DNA from: Escherichia phage KS_W4 | DNA length: 57,280 nt | Sequence record: PP627281.1 | Strand: one strand, 5' to 3' | Shown: one piece after another, positions 21,334 to 44,148 of the stretch | Position numbering within the stretch: position 1 is the first letter of the stretch | Layout: every line of letters starts with the position of its first letter | Made by a program: the position numbers and the translations under genes | Notes under the pieces: model-generated | Database searches by the model: none | Seen by the model: only the letters and a program-made list of their open reading frames with translations | What the model was told of the DNA's origin: nothing

Positions 21334-21604
21334 AGGTATTGATAAAGTTGTTGAAGGGCTTTCTATTCGCGCTCATGTTATAGCAGATGAAGGTCATGAT
21401 CAACTTACTATTATGAAATCCGCATTCAGCGATTTCAAGTCGCTTGGAAACTTAAGCGGGTTAATGACTGTGATGTCGACCGGAAAATTAACCCAGCAGC
21501 AAATCAGTCTAGCGCAACGTATTGCTGTTAAAGTTATTGCGGTACTTGGGATGATTGAAGCCGAAAAGCCCAGTTCCAAGCAGGATAACGAAAGCGACCT
21601 TTAA
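21320..21604 (+). CDS. hypothetical protein (possible fibre assembly factor)
   Basis: 94-aa ORF overlapping the end of the fibre gene; RBS AAGGTGAAA. Confidence 0.4.
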   Translation: MTKNEGIDKVVEGLSIRAHVIADEGHDQLTIMKSAFSDFKSLGNLSGLMTVMSTGKLTQQQISLAQRIAVKVIAVLGMIEAEKPSSKQDNESDL

Positions 21605-21615
21605 GGAGGTCTACT

Positions 21616-21819
21616 ATGTGTGGTAATACTAACCGTTGCTGTTTAGGCAGTCCTGCAACACAAGCAGGTATACTTCAGGGGCAATTGGCTCAAGCAGCGT
21701 GTAATTGCAAGACGTTTCAACCAGTAGCGCCAACTCCGTTGTTTGTGAATGCTTTTGCACCGCCTGTTTTCAATACTTTTGGCGTATACCCATACGGTGC
21801 TTTCTTTCGTATATTCTAA
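21616..21819 (+). CDS. hypothetical Cys-rich small protein
   Basis: 67-aa ORF with GGAGG RBS; last gene of the + block. Confidence 0.45.
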   Translation: MCGNTNRCCLGSPATQAGILQGQLAQAACNCKTFQPVAPTPLFVNAFAPPVFNTFGVYPYGAFFRIF

Positions 21820-21826
21820 GAAGAGA

Positions 21827-21850
21827 AAAGGGGCAAACGCCCCTTTCTTT
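21827..21850. terminator. bidirectional terminator between convergent blocks
   Basis: AAAGGGGC-AAAC-GCCCCTTTC hairpin between the end of the + block (21819) and the end of the - block (21849). Confidence 0.65.
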
Positions 21851-40235: not shown

Positions 40236-41138
40236 TTACAGTTTGTCTTTGAACTCTTCGATATATTGCTCGATCGGATACTGCTTGCGCTTGAAACGAT
40301 CAAACAAGATTTTAGCAGATTCTACGTCTTCGTCGCTCTCTTTACTTGCGCCCGGTGCCATAAAATCACGCCATGTAAAACCGTTCAGATTATGCATCTT
40401 AGCGATGTGTTTATTGTAACGACTTTCCCAGTCCACACGCGGACCTTCCATCTTGCGTAAACCGCGCCCAAGCACCTGTACATATAAATCTTTCTGACGT
40501 TGTACAGCTTCGCCATTATAAGGTCCGGTTTTAAACTCAACAACACTACCGTTAAGATCTGCACCATCCGCAAAGTTGTGTAGCATAGTTTCAATAACGT
40601 CATTCAATGTTGGAACCGTCACTTTACCCTGGGCAATACCTGCCAAATAACCGACATTTTCTTCACCGTACAACTCGATCAGTTCTTTCTTGGTCGCTTC
40701 TGCTTCTTTATTTGCAGACAGAGCTAACATCTGTTGTTCGAACATGTGTTCCTGTTCCAGGAAGTGGGCATAGCGTTCTTCGTCCACTTTGCACACAATC
40801 CATTTATATTCAACATCCTTGCTGAAGTCCGGATACTGATCCACTTCTACTACTTCCGTAGTAAAGAACTTGCCGTTATATTGAATAACAACAGTATCGT
40901 TGCACACAATCCATTTATATTCAACATCCTTGCTGAAGTCCGGATACTGATCCACTTCTACTACTTCCGTAGTAAAGAACTTGCCGTTATATTGAATAAC
41001 AACAGTATCGCCCGGTTGTAATTCGTCGCTTTCCAGGGCACGGTAGGTATAAAGACGACCACCTGCTTCAAACTTAACTTTGACAGTTACAACACCTTTT
41101 AACAGGGCATGATAAGCTTTCTGAAATTCTTTACGCAT
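40236..41138 (-). CDS. hypothetical protein with internal 37-aa tandem duplication
   Basis: 300 aa; AGAGGAAA RBS; contains two adjacent copies of DTVVIQYNGKFFTTEVVEVDQYPDFSKDVEYKWIVC. Confidence 0.5.
   Translation of the reverse strand: MRKEFQKAYHALLKGVVTVKVKFEAGGRLYTYRALESDELQPGDTVVIQYNGKFFTTEVVEVDQYPDFSKDVEYKWIVCNDTVVIQYNGKFFTTEVVEVDQYPDFSKDVEYKWIVCKVDEERYAHFLEQEHMFEQQMLALSANKEAEATKKELIELYGEENVGYLAGIAQGKVTVPTLNDVIETMLHNFADGADLNGSVVEFKTGPYNGEAVQRQKDLYVQVLGRGLRKMEGPRVDWESRYNKHIAKMHNLNGFTWRDFMAPGASKESDEDVESAKILFDRFKRKQYPIEQYIEEFKDKL
40789..41010. repeat. perfect 111-bp tandem direct repeat (2 copies) inside CDS
   Basis: Copies at 40789-40899 and 40900-41010 are identical by eye; period 111 bp (37 codons), in frame. 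Confidence 0.85.
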
Positions 41139-42253: not shown

Positions 42254-42721
42254 TTATTGAATTGAACCGCGATCAATTAACCATTGTTTCGCGTGCGCTT
42301 TAAAAATAATGCGATAGTCGTCAAGACTAATCTCCGCGCGGATGGAATCTTTAACTTCGTACCACTGCCACTCACCATTGCTAAAGACAACTGGATTGAG
42401 TGGTAGAACAACCTTCCATCCTTTACGTTCTATTTTATACATCAGAACTGGATATCTGCCAAGCTCTTTAGCGGATTGAACAGTCTGCTTCCACCATGTG
42501 TTCACCTGTGGCGTAGCATGGTTTTTTACTTCAACCGCATGGTGGCATGTATTGCTAATATCGCAACCACCGACCGCACTTTGATTCTGGTTACGCTGAG
42601 CAATAGGTTTCTCCGGTAACTGCATCCCCAGCTCTGCGTAGATTTCGGCATAAATTGCATTAAAGAAATCGCATACTTCCCGCTCACCGCGTTGACCTTT
42701 AGCGCGAATATTTACTGCCAT
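42254..42721 (-). CDS. Holliday junction resolvase-like nuclease (Hjc-type, putative)
   Basis: about 155 aa from ATG 42721 (GGAGA RBS); KGQRGEREV ... D ... EVK arrangement reminiscent of Hjc-type PD-(D/E)xK resolvases. Confidence 0.4.
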   Translation of the reverse strand: MAVNIRAKGQRGEREVCDFFNAIYAEIYAELGMQLPEKPIAQRNQNQSAVGGCDISNTCHHAVEVKNHATPQVNTWWKQTVQSAKELGRYPVLMYKIERKGWKVVLPLNPVVFSNGEWQWYEVKDSIRAEISLDDYRIIFKAHAKQWLIDRGSIQ

Positions 42722-42792
42722 GTTTGTCTCCATAACTTTAATGTAAAACACTTCATAAAGAATTTTATATTGAAGTTCTGTTGATCTCAAGG

Positions 42793-42826
42793 AACAAAAA
42801 AGCCCAGGCATAAGGATTCCTGGGCT
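42793..42826 (-). terminator. rho-independent terminator
   Basis: AGCCCAGG-(loop)-CCTGGGCT followed by TTTTTTG on the minus strand. Confidence 0.6.
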
Positions 42827-43138
42827 CTCTTGATTGTCGGATAGCTTACTTTGACTGCCGTCTTCGTCTATCCTGGCCTACTTGTACAGCCTCGCCAAAG
42901 GCTGGTGACGGTTTGGTACATCTGGCGCCGTCGAGTTAAACATCGTTCACGTCGTTCAGTAAGTTGCGGGTTTATCCTGTCCGCTCCAGGAAGCCCAGCG
43001 AAAGTAGTTGCTGTAAGGAGGTACAGCTACCGCTTTCAAGGGCTTGAGTTAAGCATCGTTCACTAAGTTAATGTTGTTAAATTGTTAAACCTCGTTAACT
43101 GTGGTTATCTTAAAGGATGCAGTCTTGAATGGCAAGCT

Positions 43139-43456
43139 TCAATTTTGCGCGGTTCCCTTTGCCGCTTTTGGTGCTAAAGTACCATCATTTAACATCAACT
43201 CAAAACCTGTTACTTGATCGGTTGGAACAATAGGGTAATTCATGATAGCCATGTGGATACAACACCCTCCATCACATTCGTCGATGTATTCACTACCCCA
43301 ATAGTATAAATGACCATCTCTTCGAATATCCATTGCTGTAGGGAAATCTACAAGAATTCTTTTGATTTCTTTTCGTCCTTCTTTATGCAGATTAGTTTCA
43401 ATACGGATAAGCTCCGCATAAATTGCTTCACAAATAGTGTTTACAATTCCCATCAT
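43139..43456 (-). CDS. hypothetical protein
   Basis: 105-aa ORF; Cys-rich segment CDGGCC. Confidence 0.4.
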   Translation of the reverse strand: MMGIVNTICEAIYAELIRIETNLHKEGRKEIKRILVDFPTAMDIRRDGHLYYWGSEYIDECDGGCCIHMAIMNYPIVPTDQVTGFELMLNDGTLAPKAAKGTAQN

Positions 43457-43891: not shown

Positions 43892-44116
43892 ATGGTCATG
43901 CTGAATAAAGTATATAGCACAATGGGCGCGGATTATAAAGTTGTACGTCACCCGCGTACTGGCAAATTTGAAGCATATATCCGTCCAATGGGTGAAGGTT
44001 GGATGTATTACGGTACTTATGACGACGCTGAGCAAGCTTATGAAGAAGCGGAAAGTGCAGCGGAAGCATCCGAAATTATGGCAAGGTACGACGTCGATGA
44101 TTACTATCTCAACTAA
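43892..44116 (+). CDS. hypothetical acidic protein (orphan plus-strand gene)
   Basis: 74-aa ORF with strong RBS (ACGGAGGA); own promoter-like element upstream and terminator downstream; opposite orientation to all neighbours. Confidence 0.5.
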   Translation: MVMLNKVYSTMGADYKVVRHPRTGKFEAYIRPMGEGWMYYGTYDDAEQAYEEAESAAEASEIMARYDVDDYYLN

Positions 44117-44118
44117 CA

Positions 44119-44148
44119 ATAAAGGGCCGAAAGGCCCTTTATTTATTT
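44119..44148. terminator. bidirectional rho-independent terminator
   Basis: AAAGGGCC-GAAA-GGCCCTTT followed by ATTTATTTG. Confidence 0.7.

What the first reader, a model, noticed from the sequence alone, without database searches (positions are those of the whole stretch)
42827..43138. About 300-nt transcribed but non-coding gap ending at a terminator: candidate small RNA
Between the minus-strand gene ending at 43139 and the terminator at 42793-42826 there is no convincing ORF. The region contains a direct repeat GAGTTAARCATCGTTCAC (about 42924 and 43046) and several short stems. Being co-directional and bounded by a terminator, it would be transcribed as a discrete 3' segment. That pattern fits an sRNA or a structured leader/regulatory element.
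Basis: inference. Interest (0 to 1): 0.45.

Follow-up and report, generated by a model that had tools for sequence, protein, structure and literature searches.

The report
Structured non-coding RNA gene in phage
The gap is very probably a gene for a roughly 305-base, elaborately folded non-coding RNA of E. coli phages of the genus Seuratvirus; it belongs to no catalogued RNA family, one of its hairpin loops copies the last nine bases of the host's 16S ribosomal RNA, and its function is still unknown.

Summary
Window 42796-43138 (minus strand) has no conserved ORF, carries the reported 18-nt repeat (true positions 42933-42950 and 43046-43063) and ends in a strong intrinsic terminator.

The window is a Seuratvirus (Queuovirinae) phage. 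Among 17 distinct orthologues, a Salmonella phage and a five-phage variant group supply most of the compensatory base changes. These keep a long hairpin (HP1), an H-type pseudoknot and a third hairpin (HP3) paired: 98% of cells pair, against 21-41% in slid controls, and 12 pairs change on both sides. G-U pairs fit the minus strand only.

A sigma-70-like promoter begins 3 nt after the upstream stop codon. A second one follows the terminator. This looks like a discrete RNA gene of about 305 nt.

Features:
- phased U(U/G)AAC pentamers;
- two ~105-nt units, three in one metagenomic contig;
- an HP1 loop ACCUCCUUA identical to the 3' end of 16S rRNA;
- an invariant GAA/AGUA loop-E-like motif.

There is no Rfam, tRNA or literature match. 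The top of HP1 recurs in Nonagvirus at the same genomic position.

Function is inferred, not shown. My best guess is a trans-acting RNA that pairs with Shine-Dalgarno-like sequences. A cis-acting termination-control element and a protein decoy remain live rivals.

The parts
43107..43135 (-). Sigma-70-like promoter of the RNA: TTGCCA, 17-nt spacer, TAAGAT. The -35 hexamer starts 3 nt after the stop codon of the upstream gene (stop at 43139-43141).
   Evidence: 9 of 12 matches. In STP-SP5 the same position reads TTGACA-17-TAATAT, 10 of 12. The upstream gene itself is only 64% identical in DNA.
42796..43100 (-). Predicted primary transcript of about 305 nt. The start is inferred at about 7 nt past the -10 hexamer. 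The 3' end is the U tract of the terminator.
   Evidence: Promoter and terminator positions. Length and 48% G+C. The start site is inferred, not measured.
43045..43100 (-). A/U-rich 5' tract with six same-strand U(U/G)AAC pentamers spaced 8-10 nt apart. It contains UUUAACAAUUUA, which is identical to 12 nt of the E. coli rrnH leader overlapping the 3' part of boxA.
   Evidence: pentamers at 43094, 43084, 43076, 43067, 43058 and 43048. This is the densest cluster in the whole window (6 per 70 nt against 0.25 background). The phasing is kept in STP-SP5 despite an 8-nt deletion. The rrn match is (13 of 1000 shuffles score as high).
42992..43044 (-). HP1: a 53-nt irregular hairpin (19 counted pairs) capped by the loop ACCUCCUUA.
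   Evidence: 6 pairs changed on both sides with pairing kept, 99% of cells paired. The GGUAG segment and the loop do not vary while the stems do.
43014..43022 (-). Apical loop of HP1, ACCUCCUUA. It equals the last 9 nt of E. coli 16S rRNA (the anti-Shine-Dalgarno tail).
   Evidence: Searches give the loop sequence. One search shows that rrsH ends ...GGATCACCTCCTTA. The loop is invariant in all 17 orthologues.
42966..42990 (-). PK-A, a compact H-type pseudoknot: CCUG-GA-GCGG-A-CAGG-AUAAAC-CCGC. Stem 1 is CCUG:CAGG. Stem 2 is GCGG:CCGC.
   Evidence: Stem 2 has a C:G to U:A double change in STP-SP5. The paralogous unit X in L090 reads CCAG-GA-CUGU-A-CUGG-AUAAAC-ACAG, with both stems fully compensated. 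The motif occurs only once in the window.
42933..42965 (-). Linker between the two units, with tandem 9-nt UGAACGAYG repeats (three phased U(G/U)AAC pentamers).
   Evidence: Copy number varies: two in the window, three in Dru_SM1. The sequence is variable in L003, L088 and L090.
42907..42932 (-). HP2: a 5-bp stem (GACGG:CCGUC) with a 16-nt loop CGCCAGAUGUACCAAA.
   Evidence: Predicted. It is invariant in all 17 orthologues, so there is no covariation evidence. Its 27-nt block is unchanged in STP-SP5, where the neighbouring coding DNA is 84% identical.
42887..42904 (-). Hairpin CAGCCU-UUGGCG-AGGCUG. Its loop could pair with GCCA at 42874-42877 (a pseudoknot) or with the HP2 loop. Both are unproven.
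   Evidence: The stem is kept with two G-U changes (helix 6). The proposed pseudoknot stem (helix 7) is only 82% paired and fails in the SA80RD-type group.
42839..42873 (-). HP3: outer stem GGAUAG:CUAUCC, an internal loop with GAA (42863-42865) opposite AGUA (42847-42850), which is the sequence signature of a loop-E / bulged-G motif, then a 3-bp inner stem and a tetraloop.
   Evidence: helices 8 and 9: 5 pairs changed on both sides between window-type and SA80RD/Dru_SM1-type sequences. GAAG and AAGUA are invariant in all 17. Coordinates checked. The 3-D motif is inferred from sequence only.
42796..42827 (-). Intrinsic terminator: GC-rich stem of up to 11 pairs, 10-nt loop, U6.
   Evidence: -17.8 kcal/mol. 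The SA80RD-type phages carry an unrelated terminator sequence (GCGCAGCG-loop-CGUUGCGC, U7) at the same place.
42762..42790 (-). Second sigma-70-like promoter (TTGAGA-17-TAAAAT), immediately after the terminator, for the downstream PDDEXK nuclease and dUTPase genes.
   Evidence: 10 of 12, the best in the 7-kb scan. The same two hexamers with a different spacer occur in the SA80RD-type phages. The GenBank record of SA80RD annotates a promoter there.

Best explanation
The gap is a gene for a non-coding RNA of about 305 nt on the minus strand. Its own sigma-70-type promoter is at 43135-43107, and transcription ends at the intrinsic terminator at 42827-42796. A second promoter directly follows the terminator. 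The RNA would therefore be released as a discrete molecule, and it would also form the 3' end of read-through transcripts from the upstream genes.

The RNA is modular:
- a 5' A/U-rich tract of phased U(U/G)AAC pentamers;
- unit A, a long hairpin HP1 whose 9-nt loop ACCUCCUUA copies the 3' end of 16S rRNA, followed by a compact H-type pseudoknot with an A-rich third loop;
- a linker of UGAACGAYG repeats;
- unit B, made of hairpin HP2 with an invariant 16-nt loop, a second hairpin, and HP3 with a loop-E-like GAA/AGUA internal loop;
- the terminator.

My proposed mechanism is that the RNA acts in trans through its invariant exposed elements. The C-rich HP1 loop would pair with Shine-Dalgarno-like purine tracts and so occlude the ribosome-binding sites of selected phage or host mRNAs. 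The pseudoknots and the loop-E-like module would serve as stabilising or protein-binding scaffolds.

Shown: absence of conserved coding, conserved promoter and terminator signals, strand-specific conserved secondary structure, modularity, and the identity of the loop to the 16S tail.

Inferred: that the RNA is made and is stable, that it acts in trans, and what it binds.

My own split: about 0.85 that this is a functional structured RNA, and about 0.3 for the Shine-Dalgarno-pairing mechanism specifically.
For: Structure: on 17 distinct orthologues, 98.1% of pair cells are standard pairs, against 21-41% when partners are slid by 1-3 columns. Twelve pairs changed on both sides, against 1-2 in the slid controls. 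None of 500 shuffles reached the observed paired fraction, the counts of changes on both sides or the covariation score. One-sided changes give G-U on the minus-strand RNA, which would be A-C mismatches on the other strand.

Folding: z = -4.4 for the minus strand, -2.3 for the plus strand.

Promoter: conserved and closer to consensus in STP-SP5.

Terminators: two unrelated sequences at the same position in two variant groups.

Downstream promoter: hexamers conserved with a different spacer.

Non-coding: no ORF survives comparison between relatives.

Modularity: contig L090 carries a third unit with the same architecture, a long hairpin plus a pseudoknot with both stems compensated.

HP1 loop: identical to the 16S 3' end and invariant, while six of the stem's pairs change on both sides.

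Cross-genus: the motif GUAG-N3-4-ACC(U/C)CCUU sits at the top of a hairpin with a different, covarying basal stem, at the same position upstream of the nuclease gene, in Nonagvirus and in Klebsiella phage Kpn2-P2. The background rate of that motif is 6 per 1.3 Mb.

Sequence constraint: blocks of 27 and 44 nt are unchanged in STP-SP5, where adjacent coding DNA is 84% identical.
Against: No expression data exist, so transcription, the RNA ends and stability are all inferred.

The covariation comes from only three or four independent lineages. Most orthologues are 96-100% identical.

The Nonagvirus loop is ACCCCUUUU, not the 16S sequence, so strict 16S mimicry is not conserved.

No specific target with extended complementarity was found in the phage genome. 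Any Shine-Dalgarno sequence pairs with this loop by definition, so specificity is unexplained.

Pseudoknots and a loop-E-like motif are more typical of protein- or ligand-binding RNAs than of base-pairing sRNAs.

In Nonagvirus the homologous hairpin and terminator have no promoter-like site before or after them. There the element looks like an operon-internal leader, which favours a cis role.
Confidence: 0.5

Rival explanations
1. Cis-acting transcription control. The structured RNA would be a leader or intergenic element that sets how much transcription passes the terminator into the replication and nucleotide-metabolism genes. It could work as a binding site for a phage or host antitermination factor (nut-like), or by itself modifying RNA polymerase (put- or EAR-like). 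On this view the 305-nt terminated RNA is a by-product, like lambda 6S RNA from pR'.
For: The element lies inside a long run of co-directional genes, roughly 50.7 to 22.8 kb, all on the minus strand. It ends in a terminator just before the next gene.

In Nonagvirus 9g and Klebsiella phage Kpn2-P2, the homologous hairpin is followed by a terminator. The nuclease gene's ribosome-binding site starts a few bases after the U tract in 9g, and no promoter-like site was found in the scanned 9g interval. Downstream expression there must depend on read-through.

The 5' tract shares UUUAACAAUUUA with the rrn leader at boxA.
Against: In Seuratvirus a good promoter follows the terminator directly and is conserved in two variant groups. 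Downstream genes therefore need no read-through.

The boxA core GCUCUU is absent. Only 8 of the 13 boxA positions match, and 13 of 1000 shuffles score as high.

The RNA has its own promoter.

No alternative antiterminator pairing that is conserved across the groups was found (reading of the sequences).
Confidence: 0.22
2. Protein decoy or sponge. The RNA would act in trans by sequestering a host or phage protein rather than by base pairing. Candidates are a factor that recognises the 16S 3' tail or pyrimidine-rich RNA, Hfq or ribosomal protein S1 on the A/U-rich AAC tract, or a defence nuclease. The repeated units and pentamer arrays would provide multiple binding sites.
For: Repeated motifs vary in copy number: two or three 9-nt repeats and two or three ~105-nt units.

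Pentamers are phased.

Compact pseudoknots and an invariant GAA/AGUA internal loop are typical protein-binding modules.

GGUAG and the loop of HP1 are constrained in sequence, not only in structure.
Against: No known protein-binding consensus was demonstrated. By my reading of the sequence (no tool run), GGA (CsrA-type) motifs are not enriched and ARN (Hfq-type) runs are short.

No partner protein gene is linked to the locus. The flanking genes are a protein of unknown function and a PDDEXK nuclease.

Binding cannot be tested with these tools.
Confidence: 0.2
3. DNA-level element. The phased T(G/T)AAC repeats would be iterons of a replication origin or other protein-binding array near the primase-helicase gene, with the promoter providing transcriptional activation. 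The hairpins would be incidental, or would act as single-stranded DNA signals.
For: Nine same-orientation pentamers are spaced 8-10 bp apart in two arrays, the densest such cluster in the window. The first array is A/T-rich (sequence). The locus is about 1 kb from the prim-pol/helicase gene. Indels in relatives remove or add about one repeat (8-9 nt), which keeps the phase.
Against: Compensatory changes with strand-specific G-U pairs indicate selection on an RNA of the minus strand.

The promoter and the structurally conserved terminators bracket the element.

GC skew shows nothing special here. The cumulative minimum lies at about 46-50 kb.

The pentamers cover under a third of the element.
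Confidence: 0.07
4. RNA anti-CRISPR (Racr). The units would mimic the E. coli/Salmonella type I-E CRISPR repeat, a hairpin followed by the 5' handle AUAAACCG, and titrate Cas6e or Cascade subunits.
For: PK-A reads AGCGG-ACA-GGAUAAACC-C-G, against AGCGGGGAUAAACCG in the repeat. The repeat was confirmed from the MG1655 array. Each unit has a hairpin followed by AUAAAC or AUAGAC. Racrs are promoter-driven phage ncRNAs (PMC10651486).
Against: The match covers only 14 of 29 repeat positions. Its score is reached by 31 of 2000 shuffles. Equal or better matches occur in coding DNA elsewhere in the window, for example at about 22700.

The stem is 4 bp, against 6 GC pairs in the repeat. It is also locked into a pseudoknot, whose second stem covaries.
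Confidence: 0.03

Closest known systems
Base-pairing sRNAs with C-rich apical loops that occlude Shine-Dalgarno sequences (for example S. aureus RNAIII hairpins and RsaE, B. subtilis RoxS; named from my own knowledge)
   Same: A promoter-to-terminator RNA gene. A pyrimidine-rich apical loop complementary to GGAGG or GGGG. The loop is invariant while the stem covaries.
   Different: It is encoded by a lytic E. coli phage and is about 305 nt long, with pseudoknots, a loop-E-like motif and tandem ~105-nt units. No target has been identified. There is no sequence or Rfam relationship.
Antitermination and leader RNAs of phages and operons (lambda nut boxA/boxB, HK022 put, B. subtilis EAR, lambda 6S RNA from pR'; from my own knowledge)
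   Same: A structured RNA transcribed just upstream of a terminator inside a long operon. A short terminated transcript results. There is an 8-nt overlap with rrn boxA within a 12-nt identity to the rrn leader.
   Different: The boxA core GCUCUU is missing. A conserved promoter follows the terminator. The element is far larger than nut or put, and no antiterminator protein is known in these phages.
RNA anti-CRISPRs / solitary repeat units (Camara-Wilpert et al. 2023, PMC10651486)
   Same: A phage non-coding RNA with its own promoter. A hairpin is followed by AUAAACC, resembling the type I-E repeat and 5' handle.
   Different: The similarity to the host repeat is partial and not above chance at genome scale. 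The hairpin is part of a covarying pseudoknot.
Type III antitoxin RNAs and phage pseudo-ToxI (from my own knowledge)
   Same: Tandem pseudoknot-forming units lie between a promoter and a terminator, and unit number varies between genomes.
   Different: The units here are ~105 nt and unlike each other in their hairpins. ToxI-type units are near-identical and 34-45 nt. The downstream gene is a PDDEXK nuclease, not a ToxN/AbiQ-type RNase.
Compact H-type pseudoknots with an A-rich loop 3 (luteovirus frameshift pseudoknots, preQ1-I aptamers; from my own knowledge)
   Same: The topology and proportions of PK-A and PK-X match: 4-bp stems, a 2-nt loop 1, a 1-nt junction and a 6-nt AUAAAC loop 3.
   Different: There is no reading frame to shift. 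No preQ1 family was hit even at E <= 10. The 1-nt junction leaves no room for the ligand pocket of preQ1-I. The element is not upstream of the deazaguanine synthesis genes.

Membership tests
Any Rfam 15 family (4227 covariance models) | Score at or above the family's gathering threshold | tested here: not met
   There were 0 hits in the whole window at gathering thresholds. In 42600-43300 at E <= 10 there were only three chance-level hits, 10-14 bits against thresholds of 60-80. Related loci gave nothing except a tRNA in Vid5.
tRNA / tmRNA | Cloverleaf or tRNA-like domain detectable by ARAGORN | tested here: not met
   No gene was found in the window or in L002, L006 and L090.
Stand-alone bacterial/phage sRNA gene | Own promoter upstream and Rho-independent terminator downstream, with no conserved ORF | tested here: met
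   Promoter 43135-43107, conserved in STP-SP5. Terminator 42827-42796. ORFs are not conserved. These are sequence signals only; expression is not shown.
Stand-alone bacterial/phage sRNA gene | Detected as a discrete stable transcript | not testable with these tools
   No transcriptome data were available. Literature searches found none for Seuratvirus or Queuovirinae.
Hfq-dependent sRNA | Terminator with a U tail of at least 6 plus an Hfq-binding A/U-rich or (ARN)n site; Hfq binding | tested here: inconclusive
   A U6 tail is present. AACAAU and AACAACA give only two consecutive ARN triplets (my reading of the sequence). Binding cannot be tested.
preQ1 riboswitch (plausible in a phage that makes 7-deazaguanines) | Match to the preQ1-I, -II or -III models, and a location in the leader of queuosine-pathway or transporter genes | tested here: not met
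   There was no preQ1 hit at E <= 10. The downstream genes are a PDDEXK nuclease and dUTPase.
RNA anti-CRISPR (Racr) / solitary CRISPR repeat unit | Sequence and secondary-structure similarity to the CRISPR repeat of a host system | tested here: not met
   The best local alignment to the MG1655 type I-E repeat covers 14 of 29 nt. Its score of 22 is reached by 31 of 2000 shuffles. Coding DNA in the same window reaches scores of 22-25. The stem is 4 bp, against 6 in the repeat.
RNA anti-CRISPR (Racr) / solitary CRISPR repeat unit | Promoter within about 250 bp upstream (criterion used in PMC10651486) | tested here: met
   The promoter at 43135-43107 lies about 120 nt upstream of PK-A.
Type III toxin-antitoxin antitoxin RNA | Tandem near-identical repeats of about 34-45 nt, followed by a terminator and a ToxN/AbiQ-family toxin gene | tested here: not met
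   Tandem Repeats Finder finds only an 8-nt x2 repeat. The units are ~105 nt and diverged. The downstream protein is PDDEXK_15, PF24608.
nut/boxA-type antitermination site | A boxA consensus (rrn UGCUCUUUAACAA; lambda CGCUCUUA) followed by a hairpin, upstream of terminators | tested here: not met
   Only UUUAACAA (8 of 13 positions) matches, and the GCUC core is absent. The 12-nt identity to the rrnH leader is reached by 13 of 1000 shuffles. The position upstream of a terminator is met.
Iteron-type replication origin | Several same-orientation direct repeats at regular spacing next to an A/T-rich stretch, bound by the replication initiator | tested here: inconclusive
   Phased pentamers are present. 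Strand-specific RNA covariation, a promoter and a terminator argue for an RNA product. Initiator binding cannot be tested.
H-type pseudoknot | Two stems in which the loop of the first pairs downstream, supported by compensatory changes | tested here: met
   PK-A stem 2 changes C:G to U:A in STP-SP5. PK-X in L090 has all four stem-2 pairs and one stem-1 pair changed on both sides while the loops GA, A and AUAAAC are kept. This rests on few sequences.
Loop-E / bulged-G (sarcin-ricin-like) motif | AGUA opposite GAA in an internal loop flanked by helices | tested here: met
   GAA (42863-42865) and AGUA (42847-42850) are invariant in 17 orthologues while both flanking helices covary. The three-dimensional fold cannot be tested.

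The most novel reading that the evidence does not exclude
The RNA is a cassette-built phage decoy. Each ~105-nt unit (a long hairpin clamped by a compact pseudoknot) would display a different bait, and units can be gained, as in the three-unit form in contig L090. The bait of unit A is a copy of the 16S rRNA 3' tail, and the 5' tract echoes the rrn leader at boxA. On this reading the phage makes a partial mimic of pre-ribosomal RNA. The mimic would capture Shine-Dalgarno sequences, or a host factor or defence nuclease that acts on the 16S 3' end, and so reprogramme or protect translation during infection. That would be a mode of host takeover or counter-defence not described for phage RNAs.
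Probability: 0.12. Interest if true: 0.85.

Novelty: new variant of a known kind. Interest (0 to 1): 0.5.

Why it matters
Phage-encoded non-coding RNAs are few, and most well-understood cases come from temperate phages. This is a candidate structured RNA family in lytic E. coli phages that are already in a standard laboratory collection (BASEL Bas21 and Bas25, among others) and grow on K-12. Deletion, Northern and interactome experiments are therefore straightforward.

The RNA has features that usually mark specific molecular recognition: covarying pseudoknots, an invariant loop-E-like motif, and a loop identical to the anti-Shine-Dalgarno tail of 16S rRNA. It also shows modular gain of units.

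If it regulates translation or counters a defence system, it would add a new RNA tool to phage-host biology. If it controls termination, it would define the early/middle transcription switch of the Queuovirinae.

It also corrects database annotation. The 'hypothetical protein' called on the opposite strand in several records is spurious.

Tried and rejected
(1) Known RNA families. Rfam at gathering and at permissive thresholds, and ARAGORN, gave nothing.

(2) Protein coding. All ORFs of at least 25 aa on both strands were compared across variants. None is conserved.

(3) Wider homologues by sequence:
- blastn against phages found 34 records, all classified or evidently Seuratvirus.
- E. coli genomes and plasmids gave no match.
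- Four exact-pattern scans of IMG/VR and one of metagenomes found only close relatives plus chance hits.
- The variant 3' third and unit X have no other relatives among the phage records.

(4) 16S, 23S and 5S mimicry or complementarity beyond the 9-mer is at shuffle level.

(5) Mimicry of the type I-E CRISPR repeat is not above chance.

(6) rrn leader/boxA similarity consists of one 12-mer, 13 of 1000 shuffles. I kept it only as a weak note.

(7) Intra-phage targets. Neither blastn-short, duplex scanning with the HP1 loop in the window and in 9g, nor a search for the extended complement AAGGNGG...CTACC gave any convincing or orthologous target. The only full match is the antisense of the locus itself.

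(8) A closing helix for unit B (CUUACU:AGUAGG) and the second pseudoknot stem of unit B are not supported in L003 and in the SA80RD-type sequences.

(9) A K-turn in HP3 was rejected on reading the sequence, because no GA is adjacent to the stem.

(10) GC skew as an origin signal shows nothing at this locus.

(11) Flanking proteins as RNA partners gave nothing informative.

(12) Syntenic non-coding regions of Providencia phage PSTCR4 and Vibrio phage 83AMN show only marginal sequence matches. 83AMN has no relatives with which to test covariation.

(13) Literature: five searches found no description of this RNA.
Full report
WHAT THE WINDOW IS

The 551 bases around the finding are 100% identical to Cronobacter phage CSP1 and Escherichia phage CSP1C. 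They are 95-99.5% identical to 31 further records (including Seurat, CAjan, slur01 and BASEL phages) and 78% identical to Salmonella phage STP-SP5. Every record whose taxonomy I opened is filed under Queuovirinae, genus Seuratvirus.

The locus lies in a long block of minus-strand genes. Upstream are a prim-pol/helicase gene (NrS-1-like HBD domain plus DUF3987) and small genes of unknown function. Downstream are a PDDEXK-family nuclease (named 'RusA-like resolvase' in PHROGs), dUTPase and other replication genes.

CHECKING THE OBSERVATION

The gap between the stop codon at 43139-43141 and the terminator contains no credible ORF. The largest ORF is a 71-aa TTG ORF on the opposite strand, and several GenBank records annotate part of it as a hypothetical protein. 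It is truncated to 35 and 32 aa in two relatives and takes a different form in STP-SP5. No sense-strand ORF is conserved.

The 18-nt repeat is real and non-random. It occurs twice, with 0.06 matches expected by chance. Its coordinates are 42933-42950 and 43046-43063. There is also a third, weaker copy, and two further repeat pairs with 104-nt spacing.

The terminator (42796-42827, -17.8 kcal/mol, U6) is confirmed.

The minus-strand RNA folds much better than shuffles (z = -4.4). The plus strand gives z = -2.3.

IS IT A FUNCTIONAL RNA?

No Rfam family and no tRNA or tmRNA matches.

I collected 17 distinct orthologous sequences from phage records, IMG/VR and metagenomes. Most are nearly identical. 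Useful divergence comes from four sources:
- STP-SP5. Its 5' half of the element is 69% identical to the window, close to the 64% of the upstream gene DNA.
- A group of five phages (SA80RD, Dru_SM1, SA126VB, VogelGryff, OddieOddie), in which the 3' third of the element has a different sequence.
- Metagenomic contig L090, which has an extra unit.
- Scattered point changes in other orthologues.

On a structure of 59 pairs, 98.1% of cells are standard pairs, against 21-41% when the 3' partners are slid by 1-3 columns. Twelve pairs show changes on both sides, against 1-2 in the slid controls. No shuffle reached the observed paired fraction, the counts of changes on both sides or the covariation score (RNAalifold gave the same helices).

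Hairpin HP1 alone has six doubly changed pairs. Hairpin HP3 and its inner stem have five. Several one-sided changes give G-U on the minus-strand RNA, which would be A-C on the other strand. Selection therefore acts on an RNA of the minus strand. The caveat is that only three or four independent lineages carry this signal.

TRANSCRIPTION SIGNALS

A sigma-70-like promoter (TTGCCA-17-TAAGAT, 43135-43107) begins 3 nt after the upstream stop codon. In STP-SP5 the same site reads TTGACA-17-TAATAT, although the gene before it has only 42% amino-acid identity.

The five-phage variant group has a terminator of unrelated sequence at the same place.

Right after the terminator comes the best promoter match of the 7-kb neighbourhood (TTGAGA-17-TAAAAT, 42790-42762). 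Its hexamers are kept in the variant group while the spacer differs.

Promoter, about 305 nt of structured non-coding sequence, terminator, next promoter: this is the signature of a separate RNA gene. No expression data could be consulted.

ANATOMY (coordinates verified)

- 43100-43045: an A/U-rich tract with six same-strand U(U/G)AAC pentamers every 8-10 nt. This is the densest such cluster in the window.
- 43044-42992: HP1, with the loop ACCUCCUUA.
- 42990-42966: the pseudoknot PK-A, CCUG-GA-GCGG-A-CAGG-AUAAAC-CCGC.
- 42965-42933: a linker with 9-nt UGAACGAYG repeats. There are two copies here and three in Dru_SM1.
- 42932-42907: HP2, with an invariant 16-nt loop.
- 42904-42887: a further hairpin.
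- 42873-42839: HP3. Its internal loop keeps GAA opposite AGUA in all 17 sequences while both flanking helices covary. That is the sequence signature of a loop-E / bulged-G motif.
- 42827-42796: the terminator.

The element is built of units. Contig L090 has, between units A and B, a third unit with the same plan: a linker starting AACUUA, a long irregular hairpin, and a pseudoknot CCAG-GA-CUGU-A-CUGG-AUAAAC-ACAG. In that pseudoknot both stems differ from PK-A but remain complementary.

THE HP1 LOOP

ACCUCCUUA is exactly the 3' end of E. coli 16S rRNA (rrsH ends ...GGATCACCTCCTTA). Its complement, TAAGGAGGT, occurs perfectly only twice in the window. One copy is a real ribosome-binding site at 21602. 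The other is this loop, read on the other strand.

Beyond these nine bases there is no similarity or complementarity to 16S, 23S or 5S rRNA above shuffle level.

BEYOND THE GENUS

In Nonagvirus (9g and relatives) and in Klebsiella phage Kpn2-P2, the space just upstream of the orthologous nuclease gene holds a hairpin and a terminator. The top of that hairpin reads (G/A)GUAG-N3-4-ACCCCUUUU. This compares with GGUAG-N4-5-ACCUCCUUA in Seuratvirus. STP-SP5 and Kpn2-P2 share 15 of 17 positions there. The basal stems are unrelated but complementary: GCGAGAG/CUCUCGC in 9g and GACAGU/ACUGUC in Kpn2-P2.

The motif is rare in background DNA, at 6 per 1.3 Mb. It was absent upstream of the nuclease gene in the other 67 of 80 related loci fetched. 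In the four closest of those, which I folded, the DNA upstream of the gene shows no terminator-like hairpin and looks like coding sequence.

HP1 is therefore probably the conserved core. The pseudoknot units are a Seuratvirus elaboration.

Two points follow. First, the loop is C-rich and complementary to Shine-Dalgarno sequences in both genera, but it is not the 16S sequence in Nonagvirus. Second, in 9g no promoter-like site is found before or after the element, and the nuclease gene's ribosome-binding site follows the terminator within a few bases. This keeps a cis-regulatory reading alive.

Providencia phage PSTCR4 and Vibrio phage 83AMN have 370-450-nt non-coding stretches at the same position. 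Each ends in a terminator, is preceded by promoter-like hexamers (my reading), and has a hairpin loop containing CUCC or CCUCCC. Homology is unproven. Pantoea phage Vid5 has a tRNA-Ser there.

MECHANISM

What is shown:
- a conserved, strand-specific, modular RNA structure;
- its own transcription signals;
- several sequence-invariant exposed elements.

What is inferred is everything about its action.

I rank a trans-acting RNA first, because of the flanking promoters and terminator in Seuratvirus. Within that, I favour pairing of the C-rich HP1 loop with Shine-Dalgarno-like sequences, because that loop is the one feature kept across genera. I could not find a specific target.

Rivals:
- A cis-acting termination or antitermination element. 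This is supported by the Nonagvirus layout and by a 12-nt identity to the rrn leader at boxA that is only weakly significant.
- A protein decoy, suggested by the repeated motifs, variable copy number and protein-type RNA modules.
- A DNA-level iteron array, suggested by the phased pentamers, but contradicted by strand-specific covariation.
- A type I-E CRISPR-repeat mimic. The resemblance AGCGG..GGAUAAACC is real but not above chance, and the stem is unlike the repeat's.

NOVELTY AND VERDICT

Nothing in Rfam 15 or in the searchable literature describes this element. By kind, it is a phage-encoded small or medium non-coding RNA. Its architecture is unusual for that kind: tandem hairpin-pseudoknot units, a loop-E-like motif and an anti-Shine-Dalgarno loop.

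I rate it a real feature, a new variant of a known kind, and of moderate interest. The interest is raised by how easily it can be tested, because BASEL phages grow on E. coli K-12.

Noticed in passing
window 40789-41010 (inside minus-strand ORF 40236-41138): A perfect 111-bp tandem duplication (2.0 copies, 100% match) repeats 37 amino acids in a 300-aa protein of unknown function (phrog_27666). The orthologue annotated in GottfriedDienst is 263 aa, so the duplication seems specific to this genome or is an assembly artefact.
   Followed up: partly
L090:1130-1235 (metagenome contig ERZ1026901 NODE-154, 61 kb): A third ~100-nt unit (long hairpin plus pseudoknot CCAG..CUGG AUAAAC ACAG) is inserted between units A and B of the RNA. 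It has no match among the phage records.
   Followed up: partly
L006:2870-3480, L004:2900-3540 (SA80RD, Dru_SM1; also SA126VB, VogelGryff, OddieOddie): In five phages an HNH homing-endonuclease gene (HNH_3 plus a weak AP2 hit) sits right after the RNA. The 3' third of the RNA (HP3 and the terminator) has a different sequence, and in Dru_SM1 the following PDDEXK gene is only 61% identical in protein. This looks like co-conversion from an unsampled donor lineage that also carries this RNA.
   Followed up: partly
L005:3377-3480 (9g), L102:3875-3985 (Kpn2-P2), L099:3460-3830 (PSTCR4), L101:3545-3995 (83AMN), L100:3697-3784 (Vid5): The slot upstream of the PDDEXK nuclease gene holds non-coding, terminator-ended sequence in several related genera. 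In each, a hairpin loop is C/U-rich and complementary to Shine-Dalgarno sequences. In Vid5 the slot holds a tRNA-Ser(GCU) gene.
   Followed up: partly
window 43071-43082 (minus strand): UUUAACAAUUUA is identical to 12 nt of the E. coli rrnH leader (TGCTCTTTAACAATTTATCA) and overlaps the 3' part of boxA. Thirteen of 1000 shuffles score as high, and the boxA core GCUC is absent.
   Followed up: yes
window 42851-43066 (+); L001:3185-3346; L097:685-846: The plus-strand ORF annotated as 'hypothetical protein' (bas21_0062, bas25_0058) inside the RNA locus is not conserved and is almost certainly a false gene call.
   Followed up: yes
window 21602-21850: The only perfect TAAGGAGGT ribosome-binding site of the window precedes a 67-aa cysteine-rich ORF (21616-21819) at the end of the plus-strand (terminase-containing) gene block. 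A GC-rich hairpin with T runs on both sides follows (about 21826-21848), where the plus- and minus-strand gene blocks converge.
   Followed up: no
window 43892-44143: A lone plus-strand gene (74 aa, phrog_22269, weak AP2-domain hit) lies inside the minus-strand block between the primase gene and the RNA. The 9g record notes its orthologue as 'similar with transcription elongation factors'. It ends at a palindromic terminator-like hairpin at 44118-44143.
   Followed up: no
window 42254-42721: The gene downstream of the RNA is named 'RusA-like Holliday junction resolvase' in PHROGs and many records. Its Pfam match is to the phage PDDEXK endonuclease family PF24608 (E = 1.5e-13), not to RusA.
   Followed up: partly
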